Source: Candidatus Omnitrophota bacterium (GTDB taxonomy: Bacteria; Omnitrophota; Gorgyraeia; Zapsychrales; JANLHA01). Taken from it: DNA of 64,000 bases. Shown here piece after piece: positions 8,367-25,346 of this stretch. Each line of letters begins with the position of its first letter. Position 1 is the stretch's first letter. The stretch is from positions 5,926 to 69,925 of the forward strand of contig JAGLNJ010000051.1 of assembly GCA_023139575.1 (NCBI GenBank), in the 5' to 3' direction. The translations under genes and the position numbers were made by a program. The notes under the pieces were generated by a model. The model saw only the letters and a list, made by a program, of their open reading frames with translations, was not told the DNA's origin and searched no databases.

Positions 8367-8879
8367 TTATTCCTTAATACCCCAGCACATATTGCTATTA
8401 CAATTTTCGCTTCTGCAATCTGCTATGCAGATCTGACACTTTGTAGCATATTCATCATGATCTTTCGGCAAATCGCAATCACAATTAGCGCGAAAGCACT
8501 GTGATCCCACCCATATATTCATGGCTCCATCTGCCTGGGCGCAGGTATCACATATCGGTTCTCCGACAGGAATCGGACTACAAGGCGGATCATCAAGCGT
8601 GCAGCAGGGTACCAGCCATCCGGGCATTGTATAAACATTCAGGCCCCCCGTAATCACTACAGAATCATAAAAACATTCTTCCGTCGCGTTCGGATCATAC
8701 TGCTTGCCGTGGCCGAAAGAATTACCGGCATTACGCCATTGACCGGACAAACCTCGTGCTAAATATTTTTGGAAAACAAAAAATGTGCTGGCAATAAAGA
8801 ACATGACAAACATATATTCCAAGGCCGAAACTGCTTTTTTATTGTTTGCATTAGTAAATAATATTTTCTTTTTATTCAT
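8367..8879 (-). CDS. Cysteine-rich Flp/TadE-like pilin-like protein (170 aa, about 18 Cys)
   Basis: N-terminal class-III-signal-like segment KKAVSALEYMFVMFFIASTFFVF followed by YLARGLSGQWR...QYDP, a motif shared with pilin paralogs 4 and 7. The C-terminus is packed with Cys (CCTLDDPPCSP, CDTC, CDCDLP, CQICIADCRSENCNSNMC). Confidence 0.55.
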   Translation of the reverse strand: MNKKKILFTNANNKKAVSALEYMFVMFFIASTFFVFQKYLARGLSGQWRNAGNSFGHGKQYDPNATEECFYDSVVITGGLNVYTMPGWLVPCCTLDDPPCSPIPVGEPICDTCAQADGAMNIWVGSQCFRANCDCDLPKDHDEYATKCQICIADCRSENCNSNMCWGIKE

Positions 8880-11900: not shown

Positions 11901-13716
11901 ATCCCCCCTCACCTAAAGGATCCGCAGCGCAAGTGTCATCGTCGGCAATTAACCCTGCCGGCATCGGGACCTTATCCGCCAGCTGAGGAGGGTCACCCGC
12001 AGCGCCGGTATTGGCTTCGTCCAAACACCAATCGCCGCTGAAAGGAGCGTCACCTAAAATGTTAGGAAGTTCAAGCCGACTATTAATTCCATCGTGATCA
12101 TCATCGGCCATTTCCGGATATATATCAGCTAAAATACATGGCACCCCCGATCTTACATCACAATAAACACATTGATCATCAGTGTAATCTAAATATAATG
12201 GGGACAATTCTGTGCCCCAATCGGCAATTTTATGAAAAAGCTGAAAAATCCCTCCAGCAGGATAATTGTCGTTCAAAAGTCCCGGGCGCAAATCATAATT
12301 CATGGCATAAATCGGTGTTTTGTAATAACCCGAGACGTCATCTAATCTAAAAAGGCCTTCAATGGAACTCCCGACCGTGCTTTCCTGCCGTGTCAAACGC
12401 AGCCTGTCAGGATTGGCCGCATCAAAATAAGCCGGGTCTGTCGGGTTATAACGATAGAGATGGTGCTCATCATCCCGCCCCAGCAACTCTCTAAACGAAT
12501 AAAATCCATTAGTATGGTCTTCATATGCCGAATCGTAAATCTCTTCATATATTTCTCCGGCTTTATCATACGGCGTATTAGCCACACAAAGAGCCGGGTT
12601 CCCGCAAGGGTATTGCGGATCTCCAGGATCGTTACAGCAAGGCGGCATCACCGGAAGATTCTCTTCTCTGCCGTCGAATATAAGCACCCCCAAAATATCT
12701 ACACCAAAATCAGACACACAGCACGGATTACATTCTGAAGGCATGTCCAAAGGGAAGTCCGCAGGGAGGGATGGAAAGTTTCCCGGGCAGCACGGGTGTA
12801 TACCTGCCGAGGTAACACAATCTACCGGGTCTAAGAGTCCCCAGGTAGAAAACTGAGCGTTAAGATCATTACACAAGGCCACGTTCATGCCACTACTCCC
12901 ACAGTCAATATTGCATTTACCCGGATCCGCGTAAAGAAAACATGCCATGGATTGCTGAAAAAACTGAATAGCGTTAACCGGCGGGGCAATTATTGTTCGC
13001 AGTCGGTCTGTATAATAATAGGCAAACCGGGAAACATAATCACTGGCTTCATTCCTGGCAATGGCCGCATTCGTCTCCCAGTTAAGATCCTGATCAATAT
13101 CATGGAGGTCTGGAAAATAAACCTGATCCGTAATCGAATTCTGCAGCCCCATCAAAATCCCCCGCTCAATGAGCATGTCTTCAATAGAAAGGGCTTCTGC
13201 CATCATTTTATTCCATAGAGTCGTAATCCCGGGCTGCACAATTGTTAGTTGGACAACTAAAGAAGCCACAGACAAGATTAGAGCAAGACCCAAACAGACC
13301 AACTTCAGGGCAACGAAAGTCGCTGTCCCCGCGGAGGCGATAGTGATTATTATCGCAATAATGACAATGACAATCGTAAAGATGGCTTTTAAAACACCCG
13401 TCATGCCGCAAATACGCTGACGGCCCCCTAAAACTTCTTGAAATATTCTTTCCCCGTAGCTGGCCATTAAAGAAACCATATGCCCGGCAGATGCATTCGC
13501 CGCCATAACCGCAATGGTCTTGGTCCGTGAAACTCTCCCCATATTCATTACAGCCGCATAAATAATAAGAGCCAGGGCGGCTATAAGAATAAGAACAACG
13601 CCGACTTGGCCAGAGGTGTTTTTTAAAGAAGTTCTGTTTTTTTCTGAAAAGGAAAAAACGCTGTTTTTCCTGAAAACGTTTTGAATATTTTTTCGCAATA
13701 ATCTAAACATTAACAA
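8902..13716 (-). CDS. Giant (1604 aa) cysteine/proline/aspartate-rich TadG-like pilus-associated protein; putative pilus tip or adhesin
   Basis: N-terminus SGQVGVVLILIAALALIIYAAVMNMGRV resembles the Tad N-terminal (TadE/G-like) membrane domain. Two further TM helices follow, then a huge extracytoplasmic region with many CC/CxC motifs (HPCCPGNFP, CNPCCVSDFG, PPCCNDPGDPQYPCGNPALC) and D/P/Y/W-rich segments. It sits inside the tad operon. Confidence 0.6.
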   Translation of the reverse strand: MLMFRLLRKNIQNVFRKNSVFSFSEKNRTSLKNTSGQVGVVLILIAALALIIYAAVMNMGRVSRTKTIAVMAANASAGHMVSLMASYGERIFQEVLGGRQRICGMTGVLKAIFTIVIVIIAIIITIASAGTATFVALKLVCLGLALILSVASLVVQLTIVQPGITTLWNKMMAEALSIEDMLIERGILMGLQNSITDQVYFPDLHDIDQDLNWETNAAIARNEASDYVSRFAYYYTDRLRTIIAPPVNAIQFFQQSMACFLYADPGKCNIDCGSSGMNVALCNDLNAQFSTWGLLDPVDCVTSAGIHPCCPGNFPSLPADFPLDMPSECNPCCVSDFGVDILGVLIFDGREENLPVMPPCCNDPGDPQYPCGNPALCVANTPYDKAGEIYEEIYDSAYEDHTNGFYSFRELLGRDDEHHLYRYNPTDPAYFDAANPDRLRLTRQESTVGSSIEGLFRLDDVSGYYKTPIYAMNYDLRPGLLNDNYPAGGIFQLFHKIADWGTELSPLYLDYTDDQCVYCDVRSGVPCILADIYPEMADDDHDGINSRLELPNILGDAPFSGDWCLDEANTGAAGDPPQLADKVPMPAGLIADDDTCAADPLGEGGWKRGADRFCSDVYPYEGNCPKHRACYDDASWEDHTDPYSQERRLRFPYLQDVPYTCDCGVGGTDPAEYPEDSLDEIVYGLSEFYSYAETLLDQNLRALVKTTKEWYKIASSWLEAPCVNVNTGERLDEDMGAKGGACPFSFVKGNDGTLWVWRYEIYRFWWRIFYWIYAQAPPFDLSPPYGMGVNEGFPHPGFYPAGMDTKDLGIGVLPNPYVADSCNEMDVWCVPPEQAAPNEYGVNECPYVTPTIGFVLGEADSFNYVPAAGDWIFDDFPAAVYNEIDPTMFTRSVTDEFDQPSRGDLFDVVSCLNWQVNDERTYPLSGLAPAIGNAQKFQRCFDALFSGDSAGAAEACLLLPRCLVPGADAILFQGMDFGNAGASEEIMRCLVSADVIECNYYCAGLPAFVPPVFEDPPPPSLEPGSCAWFHDPSDPLYNTIFFDAVTNALTMTQPPYNLGSCHTFPGTPLPSMGDASFRPAVLVARDATDPDFNELTPDPVASALFDTCYNSANMAECRANCNNSVLPQEYRTSAGLLVTLPAWQWPADPAHEAAFDACFNITPDLMVPPPDPAAIADCITLCSPAAMPFGWAFDYPYLLPIWDQPYEEETVLPENYFSCAWLIAEPEFTAAEVALWHDSTWYDSLVESLELTQGSFNPSGAFLATAEACMKNAENQVAKFKKRFLFLQARLKEALRAMLILHDGWKHFTAFLDGNSPFNTASPAPFDQDSPMETMVQARFNYEDTKGTASVVVYVWQDEDLEDDELRADGSSKGFWHAVKVEVRAPGRCNNACGYWPVEGGPDSVGGPDPEWPRVDSYTKDWGTSRCYELVSTEGMVKVRVIRFDESEEVQGVITFPDDSDLWEIRDYNPAADELSAGEVAGVEGACRPLQLLDGSEWGYAFMLNYSKYSIATFPHAITDAQWGVMALGFSKLEYINCWNYVHEHLLPHGVVEESCAAYFFDEGEMGELGYLVTRSVGDSMLYANQGMRLKFVPCDGAFLSGAN

Positions 13717-13727
13717 ACCTTATTTTA

Positions 13728-14039
13728 TTAATCATAAGGACGGTCCTTTTGAAAAATTTCGCTTCTCACGCTCGGTTGAAAGGGCGCTGTTCCTCCCTTA
13801 TAAAAACGCGGACGCAGTTGATAAAGGATGCCGTCATAACTTGCCGGAACATCTTCTATTAAACCATCTCGATGCGCCGCCAACCTTCCGATCAAGTCCT
13901 TGCCCGACCATACAAAAAGTCTGATCGTTCCCAAAATGATCAAAACCGTTCCGAACAAGCTAAAACACAATTCTAAGGCAACCTGTGCCTTATTGCGACA
14001 TCGCTGTTCCTTTTTTCTTCTAAACAAAAAAATACGCAT
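13728..14039 (-). CDS. TadE-like pseudopilin (103 aa)
   Basis: N-terminus KAQVALELCFSLFGTVLIILGTIRLFVW matches the TadE-type N-terminal hydrophobic segment; small size; lies in the tad operon. Confidence 0.5.
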   Translation of the reverse strand: MRIFLFRRKKEQRCRNKAQVALELCFSLFGTVLIILGTIRLFVWSGKDLIGRLAAHRDGLIEDVPASYDGILYQLRPRFYKGGTAPFQPSVRSEIFQKDRPYD

Positions 14040-14048: not shown

Positions 14049-15587
14049 TTACAAATTAGAGCCAGGCACTCTTGTAATCCATTGATGCCCCCGCTGATCA
14101 TGCACGCGGGAACGGACAACCAACAACATCGTTTCCAGATCAAGACACGTTAATTCAACGTTGGAGCCTTCATAACAATTGCCGCAAACCTCAACCGGGT
14201 TGGTCATGCCGAAAACACCATGAATAGTCGCAAAAGGAAGCCCTCCTGCCCCATATATAATAGTTTCGTCGGCTTCTTCCCAATTTACAGGAACACCGTT
14301 ACGGCAAAACCTCCCGGTATCGTTAGTTATTTTAAAAATCCTCTCTATAATATCAAGATTCTCCTGAATTAAAGTATGGCGTGTTTGACTGTTTTCCAAC
14401 TCATAAGCATTCGTTAACGCGCTTCCGTCTCCTTCAAGGCCGGTAAAAGAATACATTGTCATATCTGGCAGAAGACCAATCTTAATATAGGTTTGGGCAG
14501 GGTTTCGCAGCAAGAATATCTTAAGATCCATATCATCTTCGGCATTGTTTAAATCACCTTCTTGAGAATCCATAACTCTCAATTTTGTAACAACCCCATA
14601 TTGATCCGTTGACCAGTCAACAATACTTTCTTCTCTCAGATCCCCATCAACATCTATCAGTGTGTTAATCTGTTCGTCAGGTAATATCCCTCTTATCCCT
14701 TTATAAAAAGAGTCATCGAAAAACACATTTTTGTACTTCTTAAACTTGTCGTGGTTAACACCGGCCACCGGCATCCATTGCCATGCAAATTTACTTCGGG
14801 CAGCCGCAGTGGCTACATCAGGGGCACCGCCGCTAAAGTCCAAATCAAAACGATTCACTTCGCCAGCTTTAAAATCGTAAGGCTGGCTTTGATTGGCGAG
14901 CCTAGCAAAAAATATTGTACAGCCGACAATGCCAACACCGGGAAGAAACATGCATTGCGACTTATAACACGTACCATGAGGCGCTATGCTTTCCAAAGCA
15001 GGAACTGCAGCGTAATACGGGCTGCATTCCTGGAGGTTAACAACTCTTGTTCCTCCCGACCAGGTGTCCTGCCAGCTCACAGCGGCATTACCCGTGCCGG
15101 AAGGATAATTATAGCGGCGAAAAGCGGATAATGTAAATGGAAAACGCTGCCCGTTTATAAAAATATCCTGAACGGGAAGATTCCAATGCTCACAAATACC
15201 GTTTTCATTTGGGCATTCTACAGGATAAAACATAGCTTTAGTAAACGACGCGCTAGCTGATGCGACAAAAGGAATCCTGTCCCGAGTGCCTGTGGGTTGG
15301 GAAGCATCTGCCGACAACCTGTCTTCCAAAACCAATACTGACGCCGTATTCCGAGCTGCAGACGTCTGATAGGTTATGGTTCCATAGTTATATTTACCTT
15401 CTCCCGTGCGAAAAGACTCAATCATAGCCAGACGCATCGTCTTCAGGCTCTGATTCATCATTGAGCTGGACTGCAGGGCAGCCTTCACGATGAGCCCAAT
15501 AATAAAAATAACAATGGCTCCGAAAATGGCTAATTCGGTAGCTGATTGTGCTAATCTCAATTTTTTTTTCTTTGGGCTATTCAACAT
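14049..15587 (-). CDS. TadG/TadE-like large pseudopilin (512 aa)
   Basis: N-terminus KKKLRLAQSATELAIFGAIVIFIIGLIV (class-III-like A-Q-S-x-x-E-L plus a TM helix), followed by a large Cys-containing soluble domain. It lies immediately downstream of the pilin array. Confidence 0.55.
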   Translation of the reverse strand: MLNSPKKKKLRLAQSATELAIFGAIVIFIIGLIVKAALQSSSMMNQSLKTMRLAMIESFRTGEGKYNYGTITYQTSAARNTASVLVLEDRLSADASQPTGTRDRIPFVASASASFTKAMFYPVECPNENGICEHWNLPVQDIFINGQRFPFTLSAFRRYNYPSGTGNAAVSWQDTWSGGTRVVNLQECSPYYAAVPALESIAPHGTCYKSQCMFLPGVGIVGCTIFFARLANQSQPYDFKAGEVNRFDLDFSGGAPDVATAAARSKFAWQWMPVAGVNHDKFKKYKNVFFDDSFYKGIRGILPDEQINTLIDVDGDLREESIVDWSTDQYGVVTKLRVMDSQEGDLNNAEDDMDLKIFLLRNPAQTYIKIGLLPDMTMYSFTGLEGDGSALTNAYELENSQTRHTLIQENLDIIERIFKITNDTGRFCRNGVPVNWEEADETIIYGAGGLPFATIHGVFGMTNPVEVCGNCYEGSNVELTCLDLETMLLVVRSRVHDQRGHQWITRVPGSNL

Positions 15588-15614
15588 TTTTATATTAACT
15601 TCTCGGGTTGCTCT

Positions 15615-15944
15615 TTATGGAATTAACGATACGGATCCTGCCACGGACTGTGTCATATTCGCCGTATCAAGACGCAAAGTCCAATATCCCGGCTCGCTGT
15701 TAACAAGGTCTGGAACTGCTTCCGTATATGTTGTCGAATTGCCGGTCGTCGAATACGTCACCGCACCATTCATAAGCTCAGGATCATATTGATCGCCTAT
15801 CCCGTCAACGGCATCGCGCCACCTTCCCTGAATCCCTCTTTTAAAATAAATGCCGCCGACAAAAACAGCGGCCACAATAATCGTTGTCAACACAATATAC
15901 TCTGAAGCGCTTTGTCCCATCTTTTTTTTCATTCTAATGAGCAT
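15615..15944 (-). CDS. Flp-type prepilin paralog 7 (109 aa)
   Basis: MKKKMGQSASEYIVLTTIIVAAVFVGGI carries the G/QSxxEY class-III signal plus a TM helix. YFKRGIQGRWRDAVDGIGDQYDP is shared with paralog 4 and the 170-aa Cys-rich protein. RBS GGTGG lies upstream of the ATG at 15944. Confidence 0.7.
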   Translation of the reverse strand: MLIRMKKKMGQSASEYIVLTTIIVAAVFVGGIYFKRGIQGRWRDAVDGIGDQYDPELMNGAVTYSTTGNSTTYTEAVPDLVNSEPGYWTLRLDTANMTQSVAGSVSLIP

Positions 15945-15967
15945 TTTCCACCTTCTTTTTTCACCCT

Positions 15968-16318
15968 TTATAACGGATCCTTCTCGAGAAACCCCAAATT
16001 AGCATGCGTTTCTGTCATAACACTCTGCCCACGCATAATTGAATAAGTAGTCTCTCCCATATCTTCTGCTTTCGTTTTTGAGTCACTTAGCTGAATTTGC
16101 GCCGTTGAGTTAATCACTATCCCCATTTTTCCGCCAAGCTGTTCCGCCTCTTCTTGATTTCCCACTTGATCTGACATCATTTTTACCATGGCCTGCGCCG
16201 TTCTCTTGACCATTGGAGTCATAACCATTCCTATAGAAAATATAACGCCCAGCAAAAAGGTATATTCCAAAACTGTTTGCGCTTTTTTCTTTGATTGTTT
16301 GTTTTTGTATCTTATCAT
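15968..16318 (-). CDS. Flp-type prepilin paralog 6 (116 aa)
   Basis: KKKAQTVLEYTFLLGVIFSIGMVM; A at -1 of the putative cleavage site; hydrophobic helix. Confidence 0.6.
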   Translation of the reverse strand: MIRYKNKQSKKKAQTVLEYTFLLGVIFSIGMVMTPMVKRTAQAMVKMMSDQVGNQEEAEQLGGKMGIVINSTAQIQLSDSKTKAEDMGETTYSIMRGQSVMTETHANLGFLEKDPL

Positions 16319-16326
16319 AAATATAT

Positions 16327-16698
16327 TTAGTTAGCATACTTGGGCGCCAACTGATTAGTAAAAGTGTCCGTAGTTGAAGTGTGATCTATTTCAAAACGAA
16401 ACTCTTCAGCCAAGGTCGGAAACTGCTTTCGAATTATGTTACTTGCAACAACCCTCCTTGCCATTTGATTAACATAATATGGTTCGTATGAAAAATATCC
16501 AACTCCCTGGTAGTCGTCGCTGTCAAACTCCTCTTTTACTTCCTTGACCATGAAGAGGCGGACATCCCGTATTTTAGACTGAACAGCGCGGCGAAAATAT
16601 GTCGCCATAGACATAATAATGGCAACCACGAGAAAAAACATAATAGAATGTTGTATGGCCAAGCTTTGTCCGTTTTTATTTTTCAGTTGTTTAAGCAT
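16327..16698 (-). CDS. Flp/TadE-like pilin paralog 5 (123 aa, degenerate signal lacking Glu+5)
   Basis: NKNGQSLAIQHSIMFFLVVAIIMSMATYFRRAVQSKIR has G-Q-S but Q instead of E at +5; no obvious SD. Confidence 0.5.
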   Translation of the reverse strand: MLKQLKNKNGQSLAIQHSIMFFLVVAIIMSMATYFRRAVQSKIRDVRLFMVKEVKEEFDSDDYQGVGYFSYEPYYVNQMARRVVASNIIRKQFPTLAEEFRFEIDHTSTTDTFTNQLAPKYAN

Positions 16699-16764
16699 TA
16701 ATCTATAAATATTAGTATGAATATTAAATAATTAAAATAGAAAATTTGCTCTACCTCACAAAAT

Positions 16765-16807
16765 AAAGAATGGCTTACCTAAAATTCCCTCAAGTAAGCC
16801 ATTCTTT
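16765..16807 (-). terminator. Perfect 14-bp inverted repeat (intra-cluster hairpin/attenuator) between pilin paralogs 4 and 5
   Basis: AAAGAATGGCTTAC-N15-GTAAGCCATTCTTT. On the minus strand it is followed by ATTTTGTG, in the 156-nt gap between the pilin-4 stop and the pilin-5 start. Confidence 0.45.
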
Positions 16808-16853
16808 ATTTAACACATTAAACATTCCTTTTACTTAAACTAGGGCGATGAAA

Positions 16854-17174
16854 TTATCCCCAGAAAGGTTGCTCAGCGTTAATAATTTCCTGATTTGATG
16901 TAACTGTTGTAATCTCATCGGCTAGCAAAACTGATGAAGTTACTCCATCCTGAAACGTTTCTTGCGTACTTGCCGATGTAATTGTCATTTTAATTACATT
17001 TGTGTTTCCCGGAGCATACTGATCCCCGATGTCATCAGTAGCGCTACGCATACGACCTTGAATACCTCTTTTAATATAAACCTGTATAGATAAAAGAGCG
17101 CCTATCACGATGATAATCAAAACAGCATATTCGAGAGTGCTTTGCCCTTTCATCTTTCTTAAAAATTTAAACAT
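16854..17174 (-). CDS. Flp-type prepilin paralog 4 (106 aa from the ATG at 17174)
   Basis: MFKFLRKMKGQSTLEYAVLIIIVIGALLSI plus YIKRGIQGRMRSATDDIGDQYAP. AAGGAGG RBS lies 8 nt upstream of the ATG at 17174, while the ORF track starts 10 codons earlier. Confidence 0.7.
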   Translation of the reverse strand: MFKFLRKMKGQSTLEYAVLIIIVIGALLSIQVYIKRGIQGRMRSATDDIGDQYAPGNTNVIKMTITSASTQETFQDGVTSSVLLADEITTVTSNQEIINAEQPFWG

Positions 17175-17233
17175 TGATATATCCTCCTTATCAAATATTA
17201 GCATTTTAACGCTTTACCTAGCAAAGACTCACC

Positions 17234-17611
17234 TTAAATACCGTCAATCAAGCCGAGAGTCGTATCATACTGTGATACCTGAGAACCGCCAGTTCCACGA
17301 GTTCTGGTGTCATCGACGTTGTAAGCGATCATCGCCGAAAGATCAGCTCTTTGCTTTTGCAGTTCTGATTCGGTACTTGCCGTGGTAACAGCATAATTTG
17401 TTTCCAAGTAATACGGTTCGTATTGGTTAGTAGTGTCTCCGAGACCTGCTGTTTCGTTCGTTAAATATGTAGAAGCAGCGCGAATTCTGGCTTGGAGAGT
17501 TCTTTGCGCATAAGTCTGCATAGCAATTACAGCCGCGACGACCAAAGAAATCAAAAGGGCGTATTCAGCTGTCTGCTGTGCTTTTTTATTTTTAATGATT
17601 CTTTTTAACAT
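17234..17611 (-). CDS. Flp-type prepilin paralog 3 (125 aa)
   Basis: MLKRIIKNKKAQQTAEYALLISLVVAAVIAM; GGAGGT RBS upstream of the ATG at 17611. Confidence 0.65.
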   Translation of the reverse strand: MLKRIIKNKKAQQTAEYALLISLVVAAVIAMQTYAQRTLQARIRAASTYLTNETAGLGDTTNQYEPYYLETNYAVTTASTESELQKQRADLSAMIAYNVDDTRTRGTGGSQVSQYDTTLGLIDGI

Positions 17612-17667
17612 TTATTGTACCTCCGTAAACGTTATTTATAGTCTATCTTCATTTTTGTTAACTCCCA

Positions 17668-17874
17668 TTATGGAGCGACTGGACGGGAATCTGACAAGCG
17701 CTGAGCCATATCATCCATGTCATCTGTGCTGTCCGTCAGTGTCGTTTGAAGCTGTGTTTGGAAAAGTCCACCCGGACCTAAGAAAACAATAAGAATGGCA
17801 ACAACACCAGCTACAAGAATGATGTACTCTAAGGTGCTCTGCCCTTTTTCCCTTCTGTTAAGCTTTTGTAACAT
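17668..17874 (-). CDS. Flp-type prepilin paralog 2 (68 aa from the ATG at 17874)
   Basis: MLQKLNRREKGQSTLEYIILVAGVVAILIVFLG; AAGGAGG RBS upstream of 17874. The ORF track extends to 17934, but that 5' extension has no RBS. Confidence 0.7.
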   Translation of the reverse strand: MLQKLNRREKGQSTLEYIILVAGVVAILIVFLGPGGLFQTQLQTTLTDSTDDMDDMAQRLSDSRPVAP

Positions 17875-17935
17875 TATATTTTCCTCCTTACTTACTAAGT
17901 CTTTCTGCTTTTTTAGGCGTTTCCAAAAAAACACC

Positions 17936-18100
17936 TTAATTTGCGCGAAATCCTTTTTGAATTACCTGTTGAGTTGCTTGAACTGAACGAAACACGTAAG
18001 TACTCATTGCCATCATGGCAGCGGCAATTACAGCAACGACGAGAGCGTATTCGATAAAATTTTGACCTGCTTTACTTTTAATTTTCTTTATAAGCCTCAT
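17936..18100 (-). CDS. Flp-type prepilin paralog 1 (54 aa from the ATG at 18100; classic short Flp)
   Basis: MRLIKKIKSKAGQNFIEYALVVAVIAAAMMAMSTYVF; GAAGGTG RBS 3 nt upstream of the ATG at 18100. The track ORF extends to 18148. Confidence 0.7.
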   Translation of the reverse strand: MRLIKKIKSKAGQNFIEYALVVAVIAAAMMAMSTYVFRSVQATQQVIQKGFRAN

Positions 18101-18282
18101 CGCACCTTCACTTTCCGTGTACAGATAATTCGTGCCCAACTTAAGCAACTTAAAGTGGATTTTTATTGGGCAACTCTATTGCCGGCACGATCATGCCGAC
18201 ATCCGCATAACAAAAATCATTATGCAAGATTGAACCCCGTTAAAAACGGGAAGAAAGCCTTAATCAATTATGAAATAGCAAT

Positions 18283-18308: not shown

Positions 18309-18526
18309 CTAGTGTGTTCTGTCTGTATTATCTTGTGTTATAGCTGTTTTAGAGTAAAAGTACCCTTGGTTGAACCGTATATAAAAAAGCCTCATGGCTT
18401 CTCCTTAGCTTAGTTACTTTATTTCACAAAACTTTACTTCGGGTGAATAAATTATAACATATATCTAAGATAACTGTCAAGGCGATACGCTCAAATAATC
18501 GTAGAAATAACAAAAATATATAAAAA

Positions 18527-20416
18527 TCATATAATGCCCAATAAAAGTTTTTTTCCTTCCAACATAATTTTTTGCTCACTAACCCTTCTTACCGCAAAAT
18601 TTAATTTTTCTATTTTCTCCCTTGGCAAGCTGTCTCTTTTAAACGCTATTTTTATGTAGTTTGCTGTTTCTTGGAAATGTCCCGGCAAAGCATAAAACCC
18701 GCTCAGCATTTCTTCCCTTGTCAATGCGGCGCATGAAAGAGGGAAGTACCTGTATTGGCAAAAAATATTTAATTGGTCCAGCAGGGTTTGCAGAATTTCA
18801 TTAAAATTATAAGAACTTGAAATAAAACGAGTTAAGTCATAATCTAAACTTATCTGTTGCTCATAGAAGGCTTTCTTTTCTTCAAATGCTTTTTTGATGG
18901 CCCCTTCTTCCCTTCCCGCATTCTGCAAATATCCCTTGAACCCTTCAGATGCGGCTGAGGCCTGTAATATAATGCCGAGAAGCGGATCCGCAAATGCTTG
19001 GCTATCATCAATATTATTAGTAATTACCGCCAGAAAAGGTTCTTTTTCAACATTTTTTGAAACAAAATAAACCTTTACCATCGTAGCACTGTCACTCATA
19101 ACAAAAGAGTTTAGATGGATCGAGCTTTCTCTATAATAATACTTCTCGTCTCCTTGAATTTCATGATAATGCTGTGACAGTTTGCAGGCCTTTAGTATCA
19201 TTTGAAACGAAGTCTGACCCGGCAACAAACCACAGACCAACGCCTTTTTTTTGCCAGGAATAAAAGGAAAAGAGGAAATTTCTTCATTTTTAAAATTGCG
19301 TAATACAATTTTGTCCAATCTGACTTTTGATGTTTTGTCTACCGCTTGGCACAAATGTCCAAAAATATCAATATTGCCATCATTGATAAAATCAATATTC
19401 CATGTTTGGACATTCTCAATAATTTCAGAATTGATCCGAGACACTGCCGAGTACAGTGAGGAGGCTAATCCTATCGAAGGCGGTTCTTTCCAAATTGACG
19501 TAAAAGACCCATCTAAATTAATTTGCTTTCCATCGCTTAAATAAACACTTATTATATTAACTTCCTTAAATAGTTGGGGCAACTCAATGGCAACCGCCAG
19601 CTTCAACTTGTTAAAATCGCATTCCTCTTTAATAGCCTCAATGGCAGACAAAGCAGCTTTGTTGTACAAAACATTATTTAATCTCCAAATTCCAGAAAAA
19701 GCACTTTGCTCAATATTTTGTGTATCCCTTAACCCAAACATTTCCAGAAATAATAAAATATCTGGATTGTTTAATCTGACGGATTTTGCCCACTCAAAAT
19801 TACTGGAAAACAATTGATTCAGCAGAGAGTTTTCTGTTAATTCATTAATTGCAGCCTTCAAAAAAACACTTCCCAAATTTGCCAAAGGAACAGATTTCTC
19901 TTCTTTTGTTTCCTGAATGGACATTAAGCCGGCTTTGTCCTTAGTAGCCTTTTCTCTAAGAGTTTCCTTTGGTAATTTTATTTTGGACATTCTAGACATT
20001 TCAGGTGGAGCCGTATCCTCCATAATAAGCGTCCGCTTCTCTTGCGGAAACAGTTCTTTAATTTTTGACTCCGGGATTTGAAATTTTTTGGAAGATTTTT
20101 TTGCTACCGACCTCCTCCCAACCGGGCTACTCAGACTGGAACTTTTGAAGATAGCGTTGATAGAGGATTTAGAAACTTTAATGTCAAAATTCTTTTGAAC
20201 AGTATCGACAAGCCTTCTGCAGCTTATATCAGGTTCTTTAGTTTTACAAGCTACAATAAAGACTACAACTTCTTTTTTTAATTTATGTATAACACCCATA
20301 GTTTTACAAAATGGACAATTGAACTTTCTAAGTATATCACAAAACAAGGCTTGGAAAAAGCGCCTTAGTTGATTTTTCATCTGCCTTAACTTTAATGTCC
20401 AGAAAAATATCAACAT
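18527..20416 (-). CDS. Hypothetical protein (629 aa), soluble, embedded in the tad locus; possible N-terminal HTH-like segment
   Basis: Long ORF with no recognisable catalytic motifs. The N-terminal region ...VACKTKEPDISCRRLVDTVQKNFDIKVSKSSINAIF looks HTH-like. It is bounded by its own terminator. Confidence 0.5.
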   Translation of the reverse strand: MLIFFWTLKLRQMKNQLRRFFQALFCDILRKFNCPFCKTMGVIHKLKKEVVVFIVACKTKEPDISCRRLVDTVQKNFDIKVSKSSINAIFKSSSLSSPVGRRSVAKKSSKKFQIPESKIKELFPQEKRTLIMEDTAPPEMSRMSKIKLPKETLREKATKDKAGLMSIQETKEEKSVPLANLGSVFLKAAINELTENSLLNQLFSSNFEWAKSVRLNNPDILLFLEMFGLRDTQNIEQSAFSGIWRLNNVLYNKAALSAIEAIKEECDFNKLKLAVAIELPQLFKEVNIISVYLSDGKQINLDGSFTSIWKEPPSIGLASSLYSAVSRINSEIIENVQTWNIDFINDGNIDIFGHLCQAVDKTSKVRLDKIVLRNFKNEEISSFPFIPGKKKALVCGLLPGQTSFQMILKACKLSQHYHEIQGDEKYYYRESSIHLNSFVMSDSATMVKVYFVSKNVEKEPFLAVITNNIDDSQAFADPLLGIILQASAASEGFKGYLQNAGREEGAIKKAFEEKKAFYEQQISLDYDLTRFISSSYNFNEILQTLLDQLNIFCQYRYFPLSCAALTREEMLSGFYALPGHFQETANYIKIAFKRDSLPREKIEKLNFAVRRVSEQKIMLEGKKLLLGII

Positions 20417-20749: not shown

Positions 20750-21094
20750 CTATGCTTCTTTTATCAACTCATCCCCTATTTGAGTTTGCGTTTCATCAAT
20801 CGTCCCCTCTGGCAATTCAATACAATAATTTGCGCGAATAAAATAGGGACCCATCCTATAAGGTTTGATCCTTTTTACAAGACCGATAACTTTATTATTT
20901 TTGTCTACAAAAATAACATCGATTGTGAAACGCATAAAAAGCATGTGGATGGAGCGGCATTGTGTAATGATAAAGCCGTGCCCTTGCGGTAAATTGTCGC
21001 GCCCTAATAAACCAACAAGACGTGATAGCGCTGTATCCGCCAGCTCAGTTTGCTGAGAGATCGTGGTGTTTCGTGTTTTATTGATTATTTTCAC
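20750..21094 (-). CDS. DUF192 (COG1430) family protein
   Basis: LSRLVGLLGRDNLPQGHGFII..CRSIHMLFMRFTIDVIFVD...CIELPEGT matches the DUF192 pattern (GLMGR...GMLF...IHMFFMRFPIDVIF...ELPAG). Its start overlaps the ATPase stop by 4 nt. Confidence 0.65.
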   Translation of the reverse strand: MKIINKTRNTTISQQTELADTALSRLVGLLGRDNLPQGHGFIITQCRSIHMLFMRFTIDVIFVDKNNKVIGLVKRIKPYRMGPYFIRANYCIELPEGTIDETQTQIGDELIKEA

Positions 21095-23262
21095 AAGGCA
21101 GGAACTGTTTCCGTAAAGATTTTTTTCTCTAACGAAAGACCTATACGGTTAAAATCTTCCATGAACTTTGGGACATATCCTGTGGGTTTAAAGTCGCCGA
21201 GTATTTTCCCGTCTTCTGTTTTCCTTTTTTGGTCAAAGACAAAGACATCGCGCAAATCAAGCTGATGATCCTTTTCTATTCCGGCAACCTCGGTAATTCC
21301 TGTTATCTTACGAGTCCCGTCAGAGGTTCGGGCAACATGAACAATAATATCAATGGCTGAGGAAACCATTTCATTGATAGCCCGGATAGGCAATTCGATA
21401 CCGCTTAAGAGGATCATTGAACTCATACGAACCAAAACATCATGGCATGAATTCGCGTGCAGCGTCGTCATAGAGCCGTCATGACCCGTGTTCATAGCCT
21501 GAAGCATATCCAGGACCTCACGGCCGCGGCACTCCCCGATGATAATGCGGTCCGGGCGCATACGCAGCGAATTAATAAACAGATCTCGAATAGTGACCTC
21601 GCCGCGACCTTCAACGTTTGCCGGGCGGGATTCCAGTCGTCCCCAATGGGTTTTCTTTAACCGTAATTCAGCGGCGTCTTCTATCGATATAATTCTTTCA
21701 TTGTCAGGGATGAAATGAGAGAGAACATTTAAAAGCGTCGTTTTCCCGGCGCCGGTTCCTCCAGAAACGATAATATTTTTTCTTCCAACCACACAGGCCT
21801 CAAGAAAAGTAGCCATGTTTTTAGAAAAACTTTTGTACTTAAGCAGCAAGTCGGCCACGCTCAAGCGCTCAACACCAAATTTTCGAATGGTAATCATGGG
21901 GCCGGTCAAAGAAAGAGGGGGAATAATAGCGTTGAAGCGTGAGCCGTCCGGAAGACGAGCGTCGACCATCGGAACAGATTCGTCAATACGTCTACCGAGA
22001 GGAGCGATAATACGGTCAATAATCGCGCGCATCTGCTGATCAGAAACAAACTTCCTGTTAGTTAAAATAATCTTGCCGCCCTTTTCTATATACAGATCGT
22101 TTTTGCTGTTAACCATAATATCGGTAACCTCCGGATCCGCAAGAAACTCTTCCAAAGCCCCCAATCCTAAAGCCTCATCAACGATCTCCTTAACAATCCT
22201 CGCCCGCTCTTCATGCGAAGAAATCAGCGCCCCTTTTTCTTCCATAAGGAGGTTGCTGACAATTTTCTTGGCGGACTCTTTCAGCTCTAAGGCTTTTTGG
22301 GGATCCCCCAACATCTCCGGCGTCAAGTCTTCCACATGCAGGCGATCCACAAGCTTCTCGTGAATCTTCTTTTTAAGAGCGACAATCTCATCTTCCTCTT
22401 TCACAAAACCATCGCCACCGGCAGGCATGTTCTGTGATGATATGCCGAATTTCTGCCAGAATTCACCCGGCTTATCCATTCCTTCGGTCATGCGAACCTT
22501 AGCCACTTCCGCGCCCTGCACAAAAAGGTCTTCCTTTTTGAGGTCTGCGATCATTTGCTTAAAGGCTTCCGCTACCTTCGAACGAGGGCTGTCGATAACA
22601 CAGGGGACGCCTCGATTCAAAGCCATACCCACGGATCTTCCATCGGAAGGAATCCTCGCAAATATTTCGCAGCCTAATACATTGCGGACCTCCTGCCAGG
22701 CAACGCCTCCCCGGCTTTCCGATCGGTTTAAGACCAGCTTGATCATCTTAAAAGGGAAATGCAGGCTTTGCAGCACCTCTAGACACCATTTGATTTGATA
22801 TACAGCTAAAACATCAGGCGTGGCCACCAAAAATATCAAGTTGGAATGATCCAAAGCAGTCAAAAGGGTTTCGCTAAAAGCCTTCCCCGCGTCTATGATG
22901 ATATAATCATAGATCGTAGAGACCGTCTTGAAAAAAGGTTTGATGTTTTCTGCTGTAATATGACCGATCTGTTTAGAATGAATAACGGCCGGCAAAAAAT
23001 CCAGACCGCAGGAATGAGAAATGACAAATTTCTTAATAATGTCCGGACTGTCGGCCTTCTCTATTTCCGGCAAAAGATGAACCAGGGCGTGGCGGGGAAC
23101 AAGGCTTAACATTCTGGACATGTCTTGCCCTGCTTGAAAATCCAAATCAAGAAGCAACACCCTTTTACCCGACACGGCTAAAGAGGTTGCCAAGTTAACG
23201 GCGGCAAAAGTCTTTCCAACACCGCCCTTATTACTAAATATAGTTATGGTTCGAGCTTCCAT
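21091..23262 (-). CDS. Fusion protein: N-terminal ParA/MinD-type (TadZ/CpaE-like) ATPase domain + C-terminal CpaF/TadA secretion ATPase
   Basis: Residues 1-250 begin ITIFSNKGGVGKTFAAVNLATSLA (deviant Walker A KGGxGKT, MinD/ParA fold). Residues ~380-723 are CpaF-like: IVSGGTGAGKTTLLN (Walker A), GRLESRPANVEGRGEVTIRDLFINSLRMRPDRIIIGECRG, LQAMNTGHDGSMTTLHANS. Confidence 0.8.
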   Translation of the reverse strand: MEARTITIFSNKGGVGKTFAAVNLATSLAVSGKRVLLLDLDFQAGQDMSRMLSLVPRHALVHLLPEIEKADSPDIIKKFVISHSCGLDFLPAVIHSKQIGHITAENIKPFFKTVSTIYDYIIIDAGKAFSETLLTALDHSNLIFLVATPDVLAVYQIKWCLEVLQSLHFPFKMIKLVLNRSESRGGVAWQEVRNVLGCEIFARIPSDGRSVGMALNRGVPCVIDSPRSKVAEAFKQMIADLKKEDLFVQGAEVAKVRMTEGMDKPGEFWQKFGISSQNMPAGGDGFVKEEDEIVALKKKIHEKLVDRLHVEDLTPEMLGDPQKALELKESAKKIVSNLLMEEKGALISSHEERARIVKEIVDEALGLGALEEFLADPEVTDIMVNSKNDLYIEKGGKIILTNRKFVSDQQMRAIIDRIIAPLGRRIDESVPMVDARLPDGSRFNAIIPPLSLTGPMITIRKFGVERLSVADLLLKYKSFSKNMATFLEACVVGRKNIIVSGGTGAGKTTLLNVLSHFIPDNERIISIEDAAELRLKKTHWGRLESRPANVEGRGEVTIRDLFINSLRMRPDRIIIGECRGREVLDMLQAMNTGHDGSMTTLHANSCHDVLVRMSSMILLSGIELPIRAINEMVSSAIDIIVHVARTSDGTRKITGITEVAGIEKDHQLDLRDVFVFDQKRKTEDGKILGDFKPTGYVPKFMEDFNRIGLSLEKKIFTETVPAL

Positions 23263-23389
23263 AAAATTATATTTTACATGCTTTACAAAAAAAATCCAGT
23301 TAAATTTATTTTAAAAAAGCGATTGCTTCCAATTCGTGCGTATAAAACGGGAGAAAATCATGAACGTTTCAGAAAAATGAGGTCAAAAA

Positions 23390-25270: not shown

Positions 25271-25346
25271 ATTTACTCCCTAAACTTCCAGTTAACCTCA
25301 TAAAAAGTGAATAACCATAGCATACCTTATTCTTAACCGTTAACCT

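What the first reader, a model, noticed from the sequence alone, without database searches (positions are those of the whole stretch)
15615..18148. Seven tandem Flp-type prepilin paralogs with graded divergence
Seven consecutive small ORFs (54-125 aa mature-scale) each start with a basic N-terminus, a G/A-Q-S/T-x-x-E-Y class-III signal and one TM helix. The first four (paralogs 1 to 4, at 17936-18100, 17668-17874, 17234-17611 and 16854-17174) have strong AAGGAGG-type RBSs and canonical Gly at -1. Paralogs 5 and 6 have weak or no SD. Paralog 6 has Ala at -1. Paralog 5 has lost the Glu+5 residue needed for assembly-competent pilins. Paralogs 3, 4, 5 and 7 and the 170-aa Cys protein share a post-helix motif Y-x-[KR]R-x-[IL]Q-x-[RK]-x-R...QY[DAE]P. 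This looks like a pilin gene family expanded in situ, with probable major subunits upstream and minor or variant subunits downstream.
Basis: seen in the sequence. Interest (0 to 1): 0.65.

Follow-up and report, generated by a model that had tools for sequence, protein, structure and literature searches.

The report
Conserved seven-pilin cassette of Omnitrophota Tad pilus
The seven small genes are real pilin genes, but they are an ancient, fixed-order set found in the Tad-type pilus locus of many Omnitrophota bacteria, not a recent local expansion; four look highly expressed and three weakly expressed.

Summary
Seven consecutive minus-strand genes (15615-18100) each encode a basic leader, [G/A]|Q-x3-E-Y and one hydrophobic helix. 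The motif occurs 9 times in the window, all within 13997-18073, and never in shuffles.

Two details are wrong. Paralog 3 has Ala, not Gly, at -1, and this Ala is invariant in its family. Paralog 1 has only a weak ribosome-binding site.

The genome is Candidatus Omnitrophota. The genes lie inside a complete Tad-like locus: RcpC, secretin, fused TadZ-TadA, TadB, TadC, and TadE/F/G-like proteins. The locus sits next to oriC and a giant gene.

In 39 of 53 related species loci the same seven slots occur in the same order, so each "paralog" has its own orthologues. This is not a recent in situ expansion.

Slot 1 is Flp-like and slot 2 matches the archaeal-type class III signal family. Slots 3-7 are about 100-residue pilins, and slots 3 and 4 are predicted as a helix plus a four-stranded sheet. 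They form two subfamilies: 3/5, and 4/7 plus the 170-aa Cys protein.

Several features support a major/minor split: a conserved promoter, strong SDs on slots 2-4 only, a sequence-conserved terminator hairpin after slot 4, and roughly twofold faster evolution of slots 5-7.

No prepilin peptidase is in the window or in the related loci. The locus was already described coarsely in the literature. An uncatalogued structured 5' leader RNA turned up in passing.

The parts
18451..18480 (-). Sigma-70 promoter of the pilin operon (TTGACA-18-TGnTATAAT, 12/12 match with extended -10)
   Evidence: The same TTGACA-N(16-18)-TGnTATAYT occurs in 34 of 40 unk629-to-p1 intergenic gaps of related loci.
18100..18177 (-). 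Conserved structured 5' leader RNA motif that ends at the p1 start codon. Layout: AAUAGAG, stem P1, internal loop, hairpin P2, P1', AAGGAUCAUCUGU..AACAC..AAGGUG (SD).
   Evidence: Covariance model R2 gives 38 hits at E<=0.01 in 1.26 Mb. There is one per locus, all directly 5' of the first pilin gene, and a single hit in the window. 92.3% of cells are paired and 11/11 pairs show compensatory changes; 0/500 shuffles reach this. No Rfam family matches.
17936..18100 (-). Pilin slot 1 (p1), 54 aa, about 42 aa mature. A short, helix-only-sized Flp-type pilin, G|QNFIEY.
   Evidence: Flp_Fap scores 22.7 bits, below the gathering score of 32.2. 37/40 slot-1 orthologues hit Flp_Fap at E<=0.01. Median interspecies identity is 62%.
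17668..17874 (-). Pilin slot 2 (p2), 68 aa, about 56 aa mature, G|QSTLEY, strong SD TAAGGAGG
   Evidence: Pfam Class_IIIsignal PF04021 scores 26.8 bits, above the gathering score of 23.7. 40/40 orthologues hit it. An SD of 5 nt or more is present in 100% of loci.
17234..17611 (-). Pilin slot 3 (p3), 125 aa, A|QQTAEY with invariant Ala at -1, strong SD; helix plus beta-sheet pilin
   Evidence: One search shows A11 invariant in 110 sequences. AlphaFold2 gives pLDDT 78.1, helix 2-53 and four strands 67-115. The family has 725 clusters, named Flp, UPF0333 or PilE by JGI.
16854..17174 (-). Pilin slot 4 (p4), 106 aa, G|QSTLEY, strong SD. With p1 it is the best conserved slot; helix plus beta-sheet pilin.
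   Evidence: 1367 clusters at E<=1e-3, and the top 120 are 65-93% identical over the full length. AlphaFold2 gives pLDDT 75.5, helix 13-52 and four strands 58-97. 3334 representatives at the 50% clustering level.
16764..16808 (-). Terminator-like hairpin with a 20-bp stem and T tract after p4. The stem core GGCUUAC/GUAAGCC is sequence-conserved.
   Evidence: GGCTTAC.{8,60}GTAAGCC occurs 36 times in 1.2 Mb of related loci. In nearly all listed cases it lies about 40-60 nt 3' of the p4 orthologue and it is not seen elsewhere in the loci; the L001 copy instead lies a few hundred nt downstream, after an inserted p1-like gene. The p4-to-p5 gap has a median of 158 nt and MFE -47.8, against 10-64 nt and -3 to -10 for the other pilin gaps.
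16327..16698 (-). Pilin slot 5 (p5), 123 aa, G|QSLAIQH, no SD. It belongs to the p3-like subfamily and has an atypical Glu position.
   Evidence: a one-residue insertion in 33/40 orthologues, and Gln instead of Glu in 7/40. hhalign p3~p5 gives 98.3%, E 1e-14.
15968..16318 (-). Pilin slot 6 (p6), 116 aa, A|QTVLEY, no SD, starts 8 nt after the p5 stop
   Evidence: Ala at -1 in 20/35 parsed orthologues.
15615..15944 (-). Pilin slot 7 (p7), 109 aa, G|QSASEY, p4-like subfamily
   Evidence: hhalign p4~p7 gives 98.4%, E 6e-15, and p7~cys170 gives 96.1%.
14049..15587 (-). 512-aa pilin-like protein (A|QSATEL-AIFG...), a TadE/F-like pseudopilin candidate with a large C-terminal domain
   Evidence: [AG]|Q-x3-E-L in 53 of 60 parsed orthologues. 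No Pfam hit. Syntenic in nearly all loci.
13728..14039 (-). 103-aa pilin-like protein (A|QVALEL; orthologues [AG]|Q-x3-E-F), a TadE/F-like pseudopilin candidate
8902..13716 (-). 1604-aa protein with a TadG-like N-terminus (SGQVGVVLILIAALAL...) and no Glu
   Evidence: No Pfam hit. Syntenic. The TadG assignment rests on motif resemblance only.
8367..8879 (-). 170-aa Cys-rich pilin-like protein (A|VSALEY). Its N-terminal half is p7-like.
6478..8285 (-). TadB-like (7431-8285) and TadC-like (6478-7368) platform proteins, each with one T2SSF domain
18527..20299 (-). Conserved unknown protein with a transposase-type N-terminal HTH, immediately upstream of the pilin promoter. The ORF extends to 20416; the conserved start is M40.
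   Evidence: HTH_32 in 8/39 orthologues, HTH_Tnp_Tc3_2 in 5/39. No relative in the PDB.
20750..26144 (-). Core machinery: DUF192 (20750-21094), fused ParA/TadZ-like plus TadA/CpaF ATPase (21091-23262), secretin with C-terminal TonB_C (23390-25270), and RcpC/CpaB (25347-26144)
   Evidence: Synteny in the related loci.

Best explanation
The seven genes are the pilin cassette of the Tad-type (type IVc) pilus locus of an Omnitrophota bacterium.

Shown:
- All seven carry a class III (prepilin) signal and lie between the TadZ-TadA ATPase and the TadB/TadC platform genes.
- Each occupies a fixed slot that is conserved in order and in cleavage-site signature across many species.
- Slots 3 and 4 are predicted to be a long N-terminal helix plus a four-stranded sheet. 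Slots 1 and 2 are of helix-only size.

Inferred mechanism:
- A conserved sigma-70 promoter with a structured leader drives p1-p4.
- p2-p4 are translated efficiently from strong SDs, and most transcripts end at the conserved hairpin after p4. p1-p4 would therefore supply the bulk filament subunits.
- Read-through at a low level, plus weak or coupled translation, would give small amounts of p5-p7, the 512-aa and 103-aa TadE/F-like proteins, the TadG-like 1604-aa protein and the Cys-rich 170-aa pilin. These would form a priming or tip (adhesive) complex.
- p5, whose Glu is displaced or lost, is a candidate for the tip-most subunit. This is by analogy with the T2SS tip pseudopilin GspK, which I recall lacks Glu5.
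- A prepilin peptidase encoded elsewhere must accept both Gly and Ala at -1, with Gln at +1. This is the signature that PMC3875500 describes for pilins processed by the archaeal peptidase EppA.
- The pilus presumably serves host or prey attachment, as proposed for Omnitrophota.
For: Locus identity:
- Pfam hits for RcpC, Secretin, T2SSE with an N-terminal ParA/AAA_31 domain, and two single-domain T2SSF proteins.
- Organism: the 100% identical protein is labelled Candidatus Omnitrophica, and 80 related loci are mostly labelled Omnitrophota.

Pilin identity:
- The motif is present 9 times against 0 in shuffles.
- Slot 1 matches Flp_Fap in 37/40 orthologues. Slot 2 matches Class_IIIsignal in 40/40.
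- AlphaFold2 predicts helix plus sheet for p4 and p3.

Fixed slots:
- 39/53 loci have exactly seven genes in order. The others differ by a duplicated p2-p3-p4 triplet or an extra p2-like gene.
- Cleavage motifs are slot-specific.

Two-tier expression:
- The promoter is conserved in 34/40 loci.
- SD matches of 5 nt or more: 100% for slots 2-4, against 13%, 14% and 46% for slots 5, 6 and 7, and 8% for the 512-aa gene.
- A hairpin with stem of 7 bp or more lies after slot 4 in 31/39 loci, with a T-rich tail in 16/39. The conserved core is present in 36 loci.

Two-tier conservation: 53-62% for slots 1-4 against 33-45% for slots 5-7.

Literature:
- A Tad complex in Velamenicoccia is described as expressed in V. 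archaeovorus and linked to predation (PMC10066038).
Against: - No prepilin peptidase (Peptidase_A24) is in the 64-kb window, in the 3.9 kb beyond it, or within 10 kb either side in 80 related loci.
- No expression or protein data were available, so abundance is inferred only from sequence signals.
- Only 16/39 post-p4 hairpins have a clear T tract, so it may be a stabilising or processing element rather than a terminator.
- p3-p7 match no curated pilin family. Their predicted heads match no solved pilin by Foldseek.
- Which of p1-p4 is the major subunit, and whether they share one filament, is unknown.
- The TadE/F/G assignments rest on N-terminal motif resemblance only.
Confidence: 0.7

Rival explanations
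1. The apparatus is mainly a type II-secretion-like machine. The many pilin-like proteins form a short periplasmic pseudopilus, with one major and many minor subunits, that pushes out cargo such as the adjacent giant protein. It would not be an external adhesive pilus.
For: The giant ORF (2-5593, more than 1864 aa, with an N-terminal Peptidase_C39 domain) lies directly downstream of tadC. West-Roberts et al. describe this conserved locus as a T2SS-like secretion system preceding giant genes. A large minor-pilin complement, here 7 or more low-SD pilin-like genes, is typical of T2SS (my own knowledge).
Against: The core parts are Tad-type: RcpC, a TadZ-like ParA domain, split single-domain TadB/TadC, and a Flp_Fap-like p1. 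The pilin motif is G|QxxxEY, not the T2SS G|F(T/S)LxE. Four strongly expressed, highly conserved pilins fit a long fibre better than a piston. The two readings are not mutually exclusive.
Confidence: 0.15
2. p1-p4 are alternative major pilins. Each builds its own filament type on a shared machine, giving functional or antigenic variety, rather than being parts of one fibre.
For: Several pilins have strong SDs. The p2-p3-p4 triplet is duplicated as a unit in 5 of 53 loci, and an extra p2-like gene occurs in 9 of 53. From my own knowledge, Thermus thermophilus assembles two pilus types on one machine.
Against: All four share one conserved promoter and one terminator, so there is no sign of independent regulation. 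Each slot is a distinct, conserved orthologous family with a different size and fold class, not a set of variable copies of one pilin. Duplication of the triplet as a unit argues that p2, p3 and p4 work together.
Confidence: 0.1
3. Some of the longer class-III-signal proteins (p5-p7, the 170-aa protein, the 512-aa protein) are not filament subunits. They would be cell-surface proteins that merely use the prepilin peptidase for membrane anchoring or processing, like archaeal bindosome sugar-binding proteins.
For: They hit no pilin family, evolve fast and carry varied C-terminal domains. Archaea are known to use class III signals for non-pilin proteins (my own knowledge).
Against: They occupy fixed slots inside the pilus operon between the pilins and tadB/C. 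p5 and p7 share the post-helix domain with the conserved p3 and p4. Most retain the Glu needed for filament packing.
Confidence: 0.05

Closest known systems
Canonical Tad / Flp (type IVc) pilus loci: Aggregatibacter flp-1-flp-2-tadV-rcpCAB-tadZABCDEFG and Caulobacter pilA-cpaA-K
   Same: RcpC, secretin, TadA-type ATPase, a TadZ-like ParA domain and split TadB/TadC each with one T2SSF domain are present. There is a short Flp-like pilin with G|x4-E-Y (p1). Pseudopilin-like proteins carry E-F/E-L, and a TadG-like large protein lies downstream.
   Different: There are eight Flp-like pilin genes rather than one or two. Five of the seven array pilins are about 100 aa mature, the 170-aa protein is similar in size, and slots 3 and 4 are predicted to have a beta-sheet head. 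Gln at +1 is nearly universal and Ala at -1 is common. TadZ and TadA are fused and the secretin carries a TonB_C domain. The locus has no tadV and no recognisable tadD/rcpB. It contains a conserved HTH protein and a DUF192 protein.
Archaeal EppA-dependent (Epd) pili of Methanococcus maripaludis, with DUF361 / Class_IIIsignal pilins
   Same: The signal is G at -1, Gln at +1 and Glu at +5, as described for EppA substrates (PMC3875500). p2 and all its orthologues pass the Pfam Class_IIIsignal model. There is one short major-type pilin plus several essential minor pilins, and two platform genes. Tad is reported to derive from an Epd-like system (PMC6668835).
   Different: The host is a diderm bacterium with dnaA/gyrAB at oriC and a secretin. 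All pilins are in one operon rather than scattered. No EppA was identified.
The conserved 'type II secretion-like' locus upstream of Omnitrophota giant genes (West-Roberts et al. 2023 bioRxiv) and the Velamenicoccus archaeovorus Tad locus (Seymour et al. 2023; Kizina et al. 2022)
   Same: [quoted passage not shown] In V. archaeovorus the Tad locus sits at 12-30 kb of the genome record CP019384.1, and here the locus lies next to oriC.
   Different: Those papers treat the small genes collectively. They do not describe the seven ordered orthologous slots, the subfamilies, the slot-specific cleavage sites, the expression signals or the leader RNA, as far as the texts I could read show.
Myxococcus Kil Tad-like apparatus and Bdellovibrio Tad/T4b pilins used in predation
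   Same: A Tad-like machine with several pilins in a predatory bacterium. Seymour et al. place Omnitrophota TadB/C with Bdellovibrionales, and RcpA with predatory myxobacteria and Lysobacter.
   Different: Not compared at sequence level here. From my own knowledge the Kil system has three pilins (KilK/L/M) and its own peptidase.

Membership tests
Flp/Fap pilin (Pfam PF04964; Tad major pilin) | Profile match at or above Pfam's gathering score | tested here: not met
   p1 scores 22.7 bits and p2 16.3 bits against a cut-off of 32.2; p3-p7 give no hit. At E<=0.01, 37/40 slot-1 orthologues match, so slot 1 is Flp-like. Only 4/120 slot 3-7 proteins match.
Flp/Fap pilin (Pfam PF04964; Tad major pilin) | Short basic leader ending in Gly, then x4-Glu-Tyr and a hydrophobic helix | tested here: met
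   Met for p1, p2, p4 and p7. p3 and p6 have Ala at -1. p5 has a shifted or lost Glu.
Flp/Fap pilin (Pfam PF04964; Tad major pilin) | Very small mature protein (about 40-60 aa) without a globular head | tested here: not met
   Met only by p1 (42 aa) and p2 (56 aa). p3-p7 are 96-115 aa mature. p3 and p4 have a predicted 4-stranded sheet.
Flp/Fap pilin (Pfam PF04964; Tad major pilin) | Encoded with the tadA/tadB/tadC/rcpA/rcpC machinery | tested here: met
Flp/Fap pilin (Pfam PF04964; Tad major pilin) | Cleaved by a TadV/CpaA-type (A24) prepilin peptidase | not testable with these tools
   No A24 gene is in the window, its contig end or the 80 related loci. The rest of the genome could not be read.
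Class III signal peptide / DUF361 pilins (Pfam PF04021; EppA substrates) | Profile match at or above the gathering score | tested here: met
   p2 scores 26.8 bits against 23.7, and 40/40 slot-2 orthologues match. p3 scores 14.7 bits, which is weak. Only 16/120 slot 3-7 proteins match.
Class III signal peptide / DUF361 pilins (Pfam PF04021; EppA substrates) | Gly at -1, Gln at +1, Glu at +5 | tested here: met
   Gln at +1 is present in every parsed slot 1-5 and 7 sequence and in 30/35 parsed slot-6 sequences. Gly/Ala at -1 and Glu at +5 are present, except in slot 5. The criterion is from PMC3875500.
Class III signal peptide / DUF361 pilins (Pfam PF04021; EppA substrates) | Archaeal host with an EppA peptidase | tested here: not met
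   The chromosome is bacterial (dnaA, dnaN, gyrB, gyrA, parAB, secretin). It is labelled Candidatus Omnitrophica. No peptidase was found.
Tad (type IVc) pilus system | TadA ATPase, TadB and TadC each with one T2SSF domain, secretin, RcpC, and a TadZ-type ParA-like protein | tested here: met
   TadZ is present only as an N-terminal domain fused to TadA.
Tad (type IVc) pilus system | TadE/TadF pseudopilins and TadG | tested here: inconclusive
   The N-terminal motifs resemble them ([AG]|Q-x3-E-[FL]; GQV..hydrophobic). There are no Pfam or NCBIfam hits.
Type II secretion pseudopilins (GspG-K) | G|F(T/S)LxE N-methylation-type motif and GspG-K family profiles | tested here: not met
   The motif is G/A|Q-x3-E-Y. 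No T2SS pseudopilin family was hit.

The most novel reading that the evidence does not exclude
The Omnitrophota Tad fibre is a heteropolymer whose repeating unit contains several different pilins: the short Flp-like p1 and/or p2 together with the helix-plus-sheet p3 and p4. The p2-p3-p4 triplet would be an obligate module, since it is duplicated only as a unit. Production would be gated by a previously uncatalogued structured leader RNA and a sequence-conserved 3' stem-loop. This would be the first multi-pilin Tad filament and a new cis-regulatory RNA class controlling pilus synthesis in an uncultivated predatory phylum.
Probability: 0.2. Interest if true: 0.7.

Novelty: new variant of a known kind. 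Interest (0 to 1): 0.45.

Why it matters
Omnitrophota are widespread, ultra-small and mostly uncultivated bacteria thought to attack other cells. Their Tad-like locus sits next to giant genes and is a prime candidate for the attachment or attack organelle.

Its pilin complement turns out to be a fixed, phylum-wide set of distinct subunits. There are four conserved and apparently abundant ones, several fast-evolving minor ones, and large tip candidates. This gives concrete targets for proteomics, antibodies and cryo-EM, and suggests which proteins contact the host.

The Gln+1 and Gly/Ala-1 signature and the Class_IIIsignal match give a bacterial example that looks close to the archaeal Epd-type pilins from which Tad systems are thought to derive.

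The conserved promoter, leader RNA and 3' hairpin give testable handles on how pilus production is regulated.

Tried and rejected
Structure and sequence searches that found nothing:
- A profile search of the p4 family against PDB sequences gave only a chance antibody hit. The same search for the HTH protein gave only chance hits.
- NCBIfam has no family for any of the ten pilin-like proteins.
- The Rfam E-value scan of 15500-18700 gave only a chance miRNA hit on the hairpin.

Methods that failed:
- RNAalifold on MAFFT alignments of the leader gave no structure because the alignment was not structure-consistent. I replaced it with an iterated covariance model.
- The listing of cluster members on ten distant p4-family representatives returned no names or taxonomy.

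Literature that could not be used:
- Kizina et al. 2022 (PMC9004380) is not held.
- The Seymour supplements contain no tadV/flp entries.
- Literature searches for an Omnitrophota prepilin peptidase and for a DUF192-pilus link found nothing useful.

Ideas considered and rejected:
- An rRNA operon in the ORF-poor region 1-6400. It is a giant ORF running off the window.
- The 203-aa membrane ORF at 29148-29759 as a peptidase. It has no Pfam hit and I saw no Asp/GxGD pattern in its translation.
- unk629 as a peptidase. It was not among the ORFs with three or more predicted transmembrane segments, and it has an HTH domain.
- Chance ORFs.

Full report
**1. What is in the sequence**

On the minus strand between 15615 and 18100 there are seven consecutive ORFs of 54, 68, 125, 106, 123, 116 and 109 aa. 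Each begins with a Lys/Arg-rich stretch, then [G/A]|Q-x-x-x-E-Y, then about 20 hydrophobic residues (alignment A1).

The cleavage-site sequences are:
- p1: KAG|QNFIEY
- p2: KG|QSTLEY
- p3: KKA|QQTAEY
- p4: KG|QSTLEY
- p5: NG|QSLAIQH
- p6: KKA|QTVLEY
- p7: MG|QSASEY

A regex for this signal plus helix, applied to all six frames of the 64-kb window, finds 9 sites. All are on the minus strand between 13997 and 18073. Twenty triplet shuffles gave none. The two extra sites are the 512-aa (A|QSATEL) and 103-aa (A|QVALEL) proteins immediately downstream. The 170-aa Cys-rich protein at 8367-8879 has A|VSALEY.

Paralog 3 has Ala at -1. Paralog 1 has only a weak GAAGGTG ribosome-binding site. The pilin-like set extends beyond seven.

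**2. Context**

The window is the origin region of a bacterial chromosome. It carries dnaA, dnaN, gyrB and gyrA on the minus strand and yidC and parAB on the plus strand, with a GC-skew switch near 38 kb.

The pilin genes sit in a single minus-strand locus, in this order:
- SurA-like PPIase
- RcpC/CpaB
- secretin with a TonB_C tail
- a fusion of a ParA/TadZ-like domain with a T2SSE (TadA/CpaF) ATPase
- DUF192
- a 590-630-aa protein with a transposase-type HTH
- the seven pilins
- the 512-aa, 103-aa and 1604-aa pilin-like proteins
- the 170-aa Cys-rich pilin
- TadB-like and TadC-like proteins, each with one T2SSF domain
- a giant ORF of more than 1864 aa with an N-terminal Peptidase_C39 domain, which runs off the window

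p4 is 100% identical to an NCBI protein labelled Candidatus Omnitrophica. The window lies in GCA_030641285.1 contig DAOWHT010000051.1.

**3. Comparison with other genomes**

The p4 family is large and tightly conserved. There are 1367 clusters at 90% identity with E<=1e-3, and the best 120 are 65-93% identical over the full length. There are 3334 representatives at the 50% level.

A scan of one genome per species found 198 confirmed matches (tblastn E<=1e-3). I fetched the best 80 loci with 10 kb on each side and assigned every ORF in them to the window's locus proteins by BLASTP.

The whole gene order recurs almost everywhere the contig is long enough: rcpC, secretin, tadZA, DUF192, HTH protein, p1-p7, 512-aa, 103-aa, 1604-aa, Cys-rich pilin, tadB, tadC.

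Of 53 loci that contain both flanking genes:
- 39 have exactly seven pilin genes
- 5 carry a duplicated p2-p3-p4 triplet
- 9 carry one extra p2-like gene after p4
- 1 has five genes

One locus carries both the duplicated triplet and the extra p2-like gene, so these categories overlap by one.

Each slot keeps its own signature across species (40 sequences per slot, of which 35-40 could be parsed):
- Slot 1: G|QN..EY
- Slot 2: G|QSTLEY, 40/40
- Slot 3: A|Q.TAEY. Ala is invariant in a 110-sequence alignment.
- Slot 4: G|QSTLEY
- Slot 5: a one-residue insertion places Glu at +6 in 33/40, and Gln replaces Glu in 7/40
- Slot 6: mostly A|Q
- Slot 7: G|Q

Mature lengths are also slot-specific: 42, 56, 108, 97, 115, 102 and 96 aa.

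The seven genes are therefore old, positionally orthologous paralogs. They are not a recent expansion in this genome.

**4. Relationships and fold**

Profile-profile comparison of the parts after the helix shows two subfamilies:
- p3~p5: 98.3%, E 1e-14
- p4~p7: 98.4%, E 6e-15
- p7~170-aa protein: 96.1%

p6 is loosely p4-like. p1 and p2 are unrelated beyond the helix.

Family matches:
- Slot 1 matches Pfam Flp_Fap in 37/40 species, although each score is below the gathering cut-off.
- Slot 2 matches Class_IIIsignal (PF04021, the archaeal DUF361 family) above the cut-off in the window, and at E<=0.01 in all 40.
- Slots 3-7 are essentially outside Pfam and NCBIfam.

AlphaFold2 with deep alignments predicts the classic pilin 'lollipop' for two of them:
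- p4: pLDDT 75.5, helix 13-52, four strands 58-97
- p3: pLDDT 78.1, helix 2-53, four strands 67-115

Neither model matches a solved structure by Foldseek.

The near-universal Gln at +1, with Gly or Ala at -1 and Glu at +5, is the signature described for substrates of the archaeal peptidase EppA (PMC3875500). This fits the proposal that Tad systems derive from an Epd-like archaeal pilus (PMC6668835).

**5. Expression signals**

*Promoter.* A perfect sigma-70 promoter with extended -10 lies at 18480-18451, just after the HTH gene. The same promoter is found in 34 of 40 related gaps, 240-430 nt upstream of p1 in most loci.

*Ribosome-binding sites.* Strong SDs (5 nt or more of AAGGAGGT) precede slots 2, 3 and 4 in 100% of 39 loci. 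The figures for the other genes are 31% for slot 1, 13% for slot 5, 14% for slot 6, 46% for slot 7 and 8% for the 512-aa gene.

*Gap after slot 4.* The gap has a median of 158 nt and folds strongly, with median MFE -47.8 kcal/mol. All other pilin gaps are 10-64 nt with MFE of -3 to -10.

*Hairpin.* In the window this gap holds a 20-bp hairpin followed by a T tract (16808-16764). Its core, GGCUUAC...GUAAGCC, is conserved in sequence. It occurs 36 times in 1.2 Mb of related loci. In nearly all listed cases it lies 40-60 nt after the p4 orthologue and it is not seen elsewhere in the loci; the L001 copy is the exception, lying a few hundred nt downstream after an inserted p1-like gene.

*Evolutionary rate.* Interspecies identity is 62, 55, 53 and 62% for slots 1-4. 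It is 33, 35 and 45% for slots 5-7 and 38% for the Cys-rich pilin.

They also show that the pattern is conserved across the phylum rather than being decay in one genome.

**6. Mechanism proposed**

Shown: a complete Tad-type machine with an unusually large, ordered pilin set.

Inferred:
- p1-p4 are the abundant filament subunits, made from the promoter-to-hairpin transcript.
- p5-p7, the TadE/F-like 512-aa and 103-aa proteins, the TadG-like 1604-aa protein and the Cys-rich pilin are made at low level by read-through and weak or coupled translation.
- These low-level proteins form a priming or tip complex. p5 is a candidate tip-most subunit because its Glu is displaced or lost.
- Duplication of p2-p3-p4 only as a unit suggests these three act together.
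- The peptidase must be encoded elsewhere and must accept Gly or Ala at -1.

Function in host or prey attachment follows the literature on Omnitrophota (PMC10066038; bioRxiv 10.1101/2023.11.21.568195).

**7. What remains open**

- No Peptidase_A24 gene is in the window (Pfam on all sizeable ORFs; transmembrane scan).
- None is in the 3.9 kb to the contig end.
- None is among the polytopic ORFs of the 80 loci.
- Denise et al. note that some systems, such as MSH, lack their own peptidase and borrow one.
- No expression or protein data could be read, because Kizina 2022 is not held.

**8. Novelty**

The locus is already in the literature. Seymour et al. report a Tad complex in Velamenicoccia and analyse TadB/C and RcpA. 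[quoted passage not shown]

In the papers I could search, I did not find:
- the seven ordered orthologous slots
- the two subfamilies of helix-plus-sheet pilins
- the slot-specific cleavage sites
- the conserved expression architecture
- the leader RNA

I therefore rate this as a new variant of a known kind, of moderate interest.

**9. Found in passing: a structured leader RNA**

The roughly 80 nt before the p1 start codon (18177-18100) form a conserved RNA. Its layout is AAUAGAG, stem P1, a 5' internal loop, hairpin P2, P1', then AAGGAUCAUCUGU..AACAC..AAGGUG (the SD).

A covariance model seeded from two sequences and iterated once finds 38 copies at E<=0.01 in 1.26 Mb. There is one per locus, always in this position, and only one in the window.

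On that alignment:
- 92.3% of cells pair, against 71.7% in shuffles
- all 11 pairs show compensatory changes
- there are 87 double-change cells, against 23.5 in shuffles (0/500 shuffles reach this)
- sliding the 3' partners drops pairing to 56% or less

Rfam has no matching family. Its ligand or protein partner is unknown. The two GGA motifs spaced about 20 nt apart, one in the SD, resemble CsrA sites, but this was not tested.

Noticed in passing
window 18100-18177 (minus); L002:9025-9104, L003:9023-9102 and 35 further loci: A conserved structured RNA of about 80 nt lies immediately 5' of the first pilin gene. Its layout is AAUAGAG, P1, internal loop, P2, P1', AAGGAUCAUCUGU..AACAC..SD. There are 38 copies, one per locus, with strong covariation (11/11 pairs compensatory, 92% paired, 0/500 shuffles). 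No Rfam family matches. It is a candidate new cis-regulatory leader; its ligand or partner is unknown.
   Followed up: yes
window 16764-16808 (minus); about position 10,360 in most related loci: The terminator-like hairpin after pilin slot 4 has a sequence-conserved stem core, GGCUUAC...GUAAGCC. It is present in 36 related loci, in nearly all listed cases 40-60 nt after the p4 orthologue (the L001 copy lies further downstream, after an inserted p1-like gene) and it is not seen elsewhere in 1.2 Mb. Sequence conservation in a terminator stem suggests an added role, such as protein binding, processing or stabilisation.
   Followed up: partly
window 18178-18450 (minus): The rest of the roughly 345-nt leader is highly structured (MFE -94.8, z = -3.0). 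It contains two terminator-like hairpins (about 18403-18378 and 18310-18288). A 19-codon mini-ORF with an AAGGAG SD has its start codon in the loop of the first hairpin, and its first 9 nt equal those of p1. This could be an attenuator, a small RNA or a remnant.
   Followed up: no
window 18527-20416 (minus): A 590-630-aa protein is conserved at this position in nearly all related loci at 22-50% identity. It has a transposase-type N-terminal HTH (HTH_32, HTH_Tnp_Tc3_2), and the rest is unknown. The conserved start is M40 (20299). It ends 47 nt before the pilin promoter, so it may be a regulator or a domesticated transposase.
   Followed up: partly
window 21091-23262 (minus): The ParA/MinD-type (TadZ-like) domain and the TadA/CpaF secretion ATPase are fused into one protein of about 720 aa. 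The fusion is conserved in all related loci that cover it.
   Followed up: no
window 23390-25270 (minus): The Tad secretin carries a C-terminal TonB_C domain (residues 529-603).
   Followed up: no
window 2-5593 (minus): A giant ORF of more than 1864 aa runs off the left end of the window. It has a Peptidase_C39 domain near its N-terminus and lies directly downstream of tadC. This matches the 'Archaeovorin'-type giant genes described by West-Roberts et al.
   Followed up: partly
window 20750-21094 (minus): A DUF192 (COG1430) protein is a fixed member of the locus, between the ATPase and the HTH protein, in nearly all related loci. Its role in pilus systems is unknown.
   Followed up: no
L001, L050, L055, L059, L065, L077 (triplet); L017, L022, L025, L030, L049, L054, L061 (extra gene): Some species carry a tandem duplication of the p2-p3-p4 triplet as a unit. 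Others carry one extra p2-like gene between slots 4 and 5.
   Followed up: partly
window 55066-55221 (plus) and 59870-60259 (plus): There is a 6S RNA gene (Rfam, 65.6 bits) and a stand-alone PilZ-domain protein elsewhere in the window.
   Followed up: no
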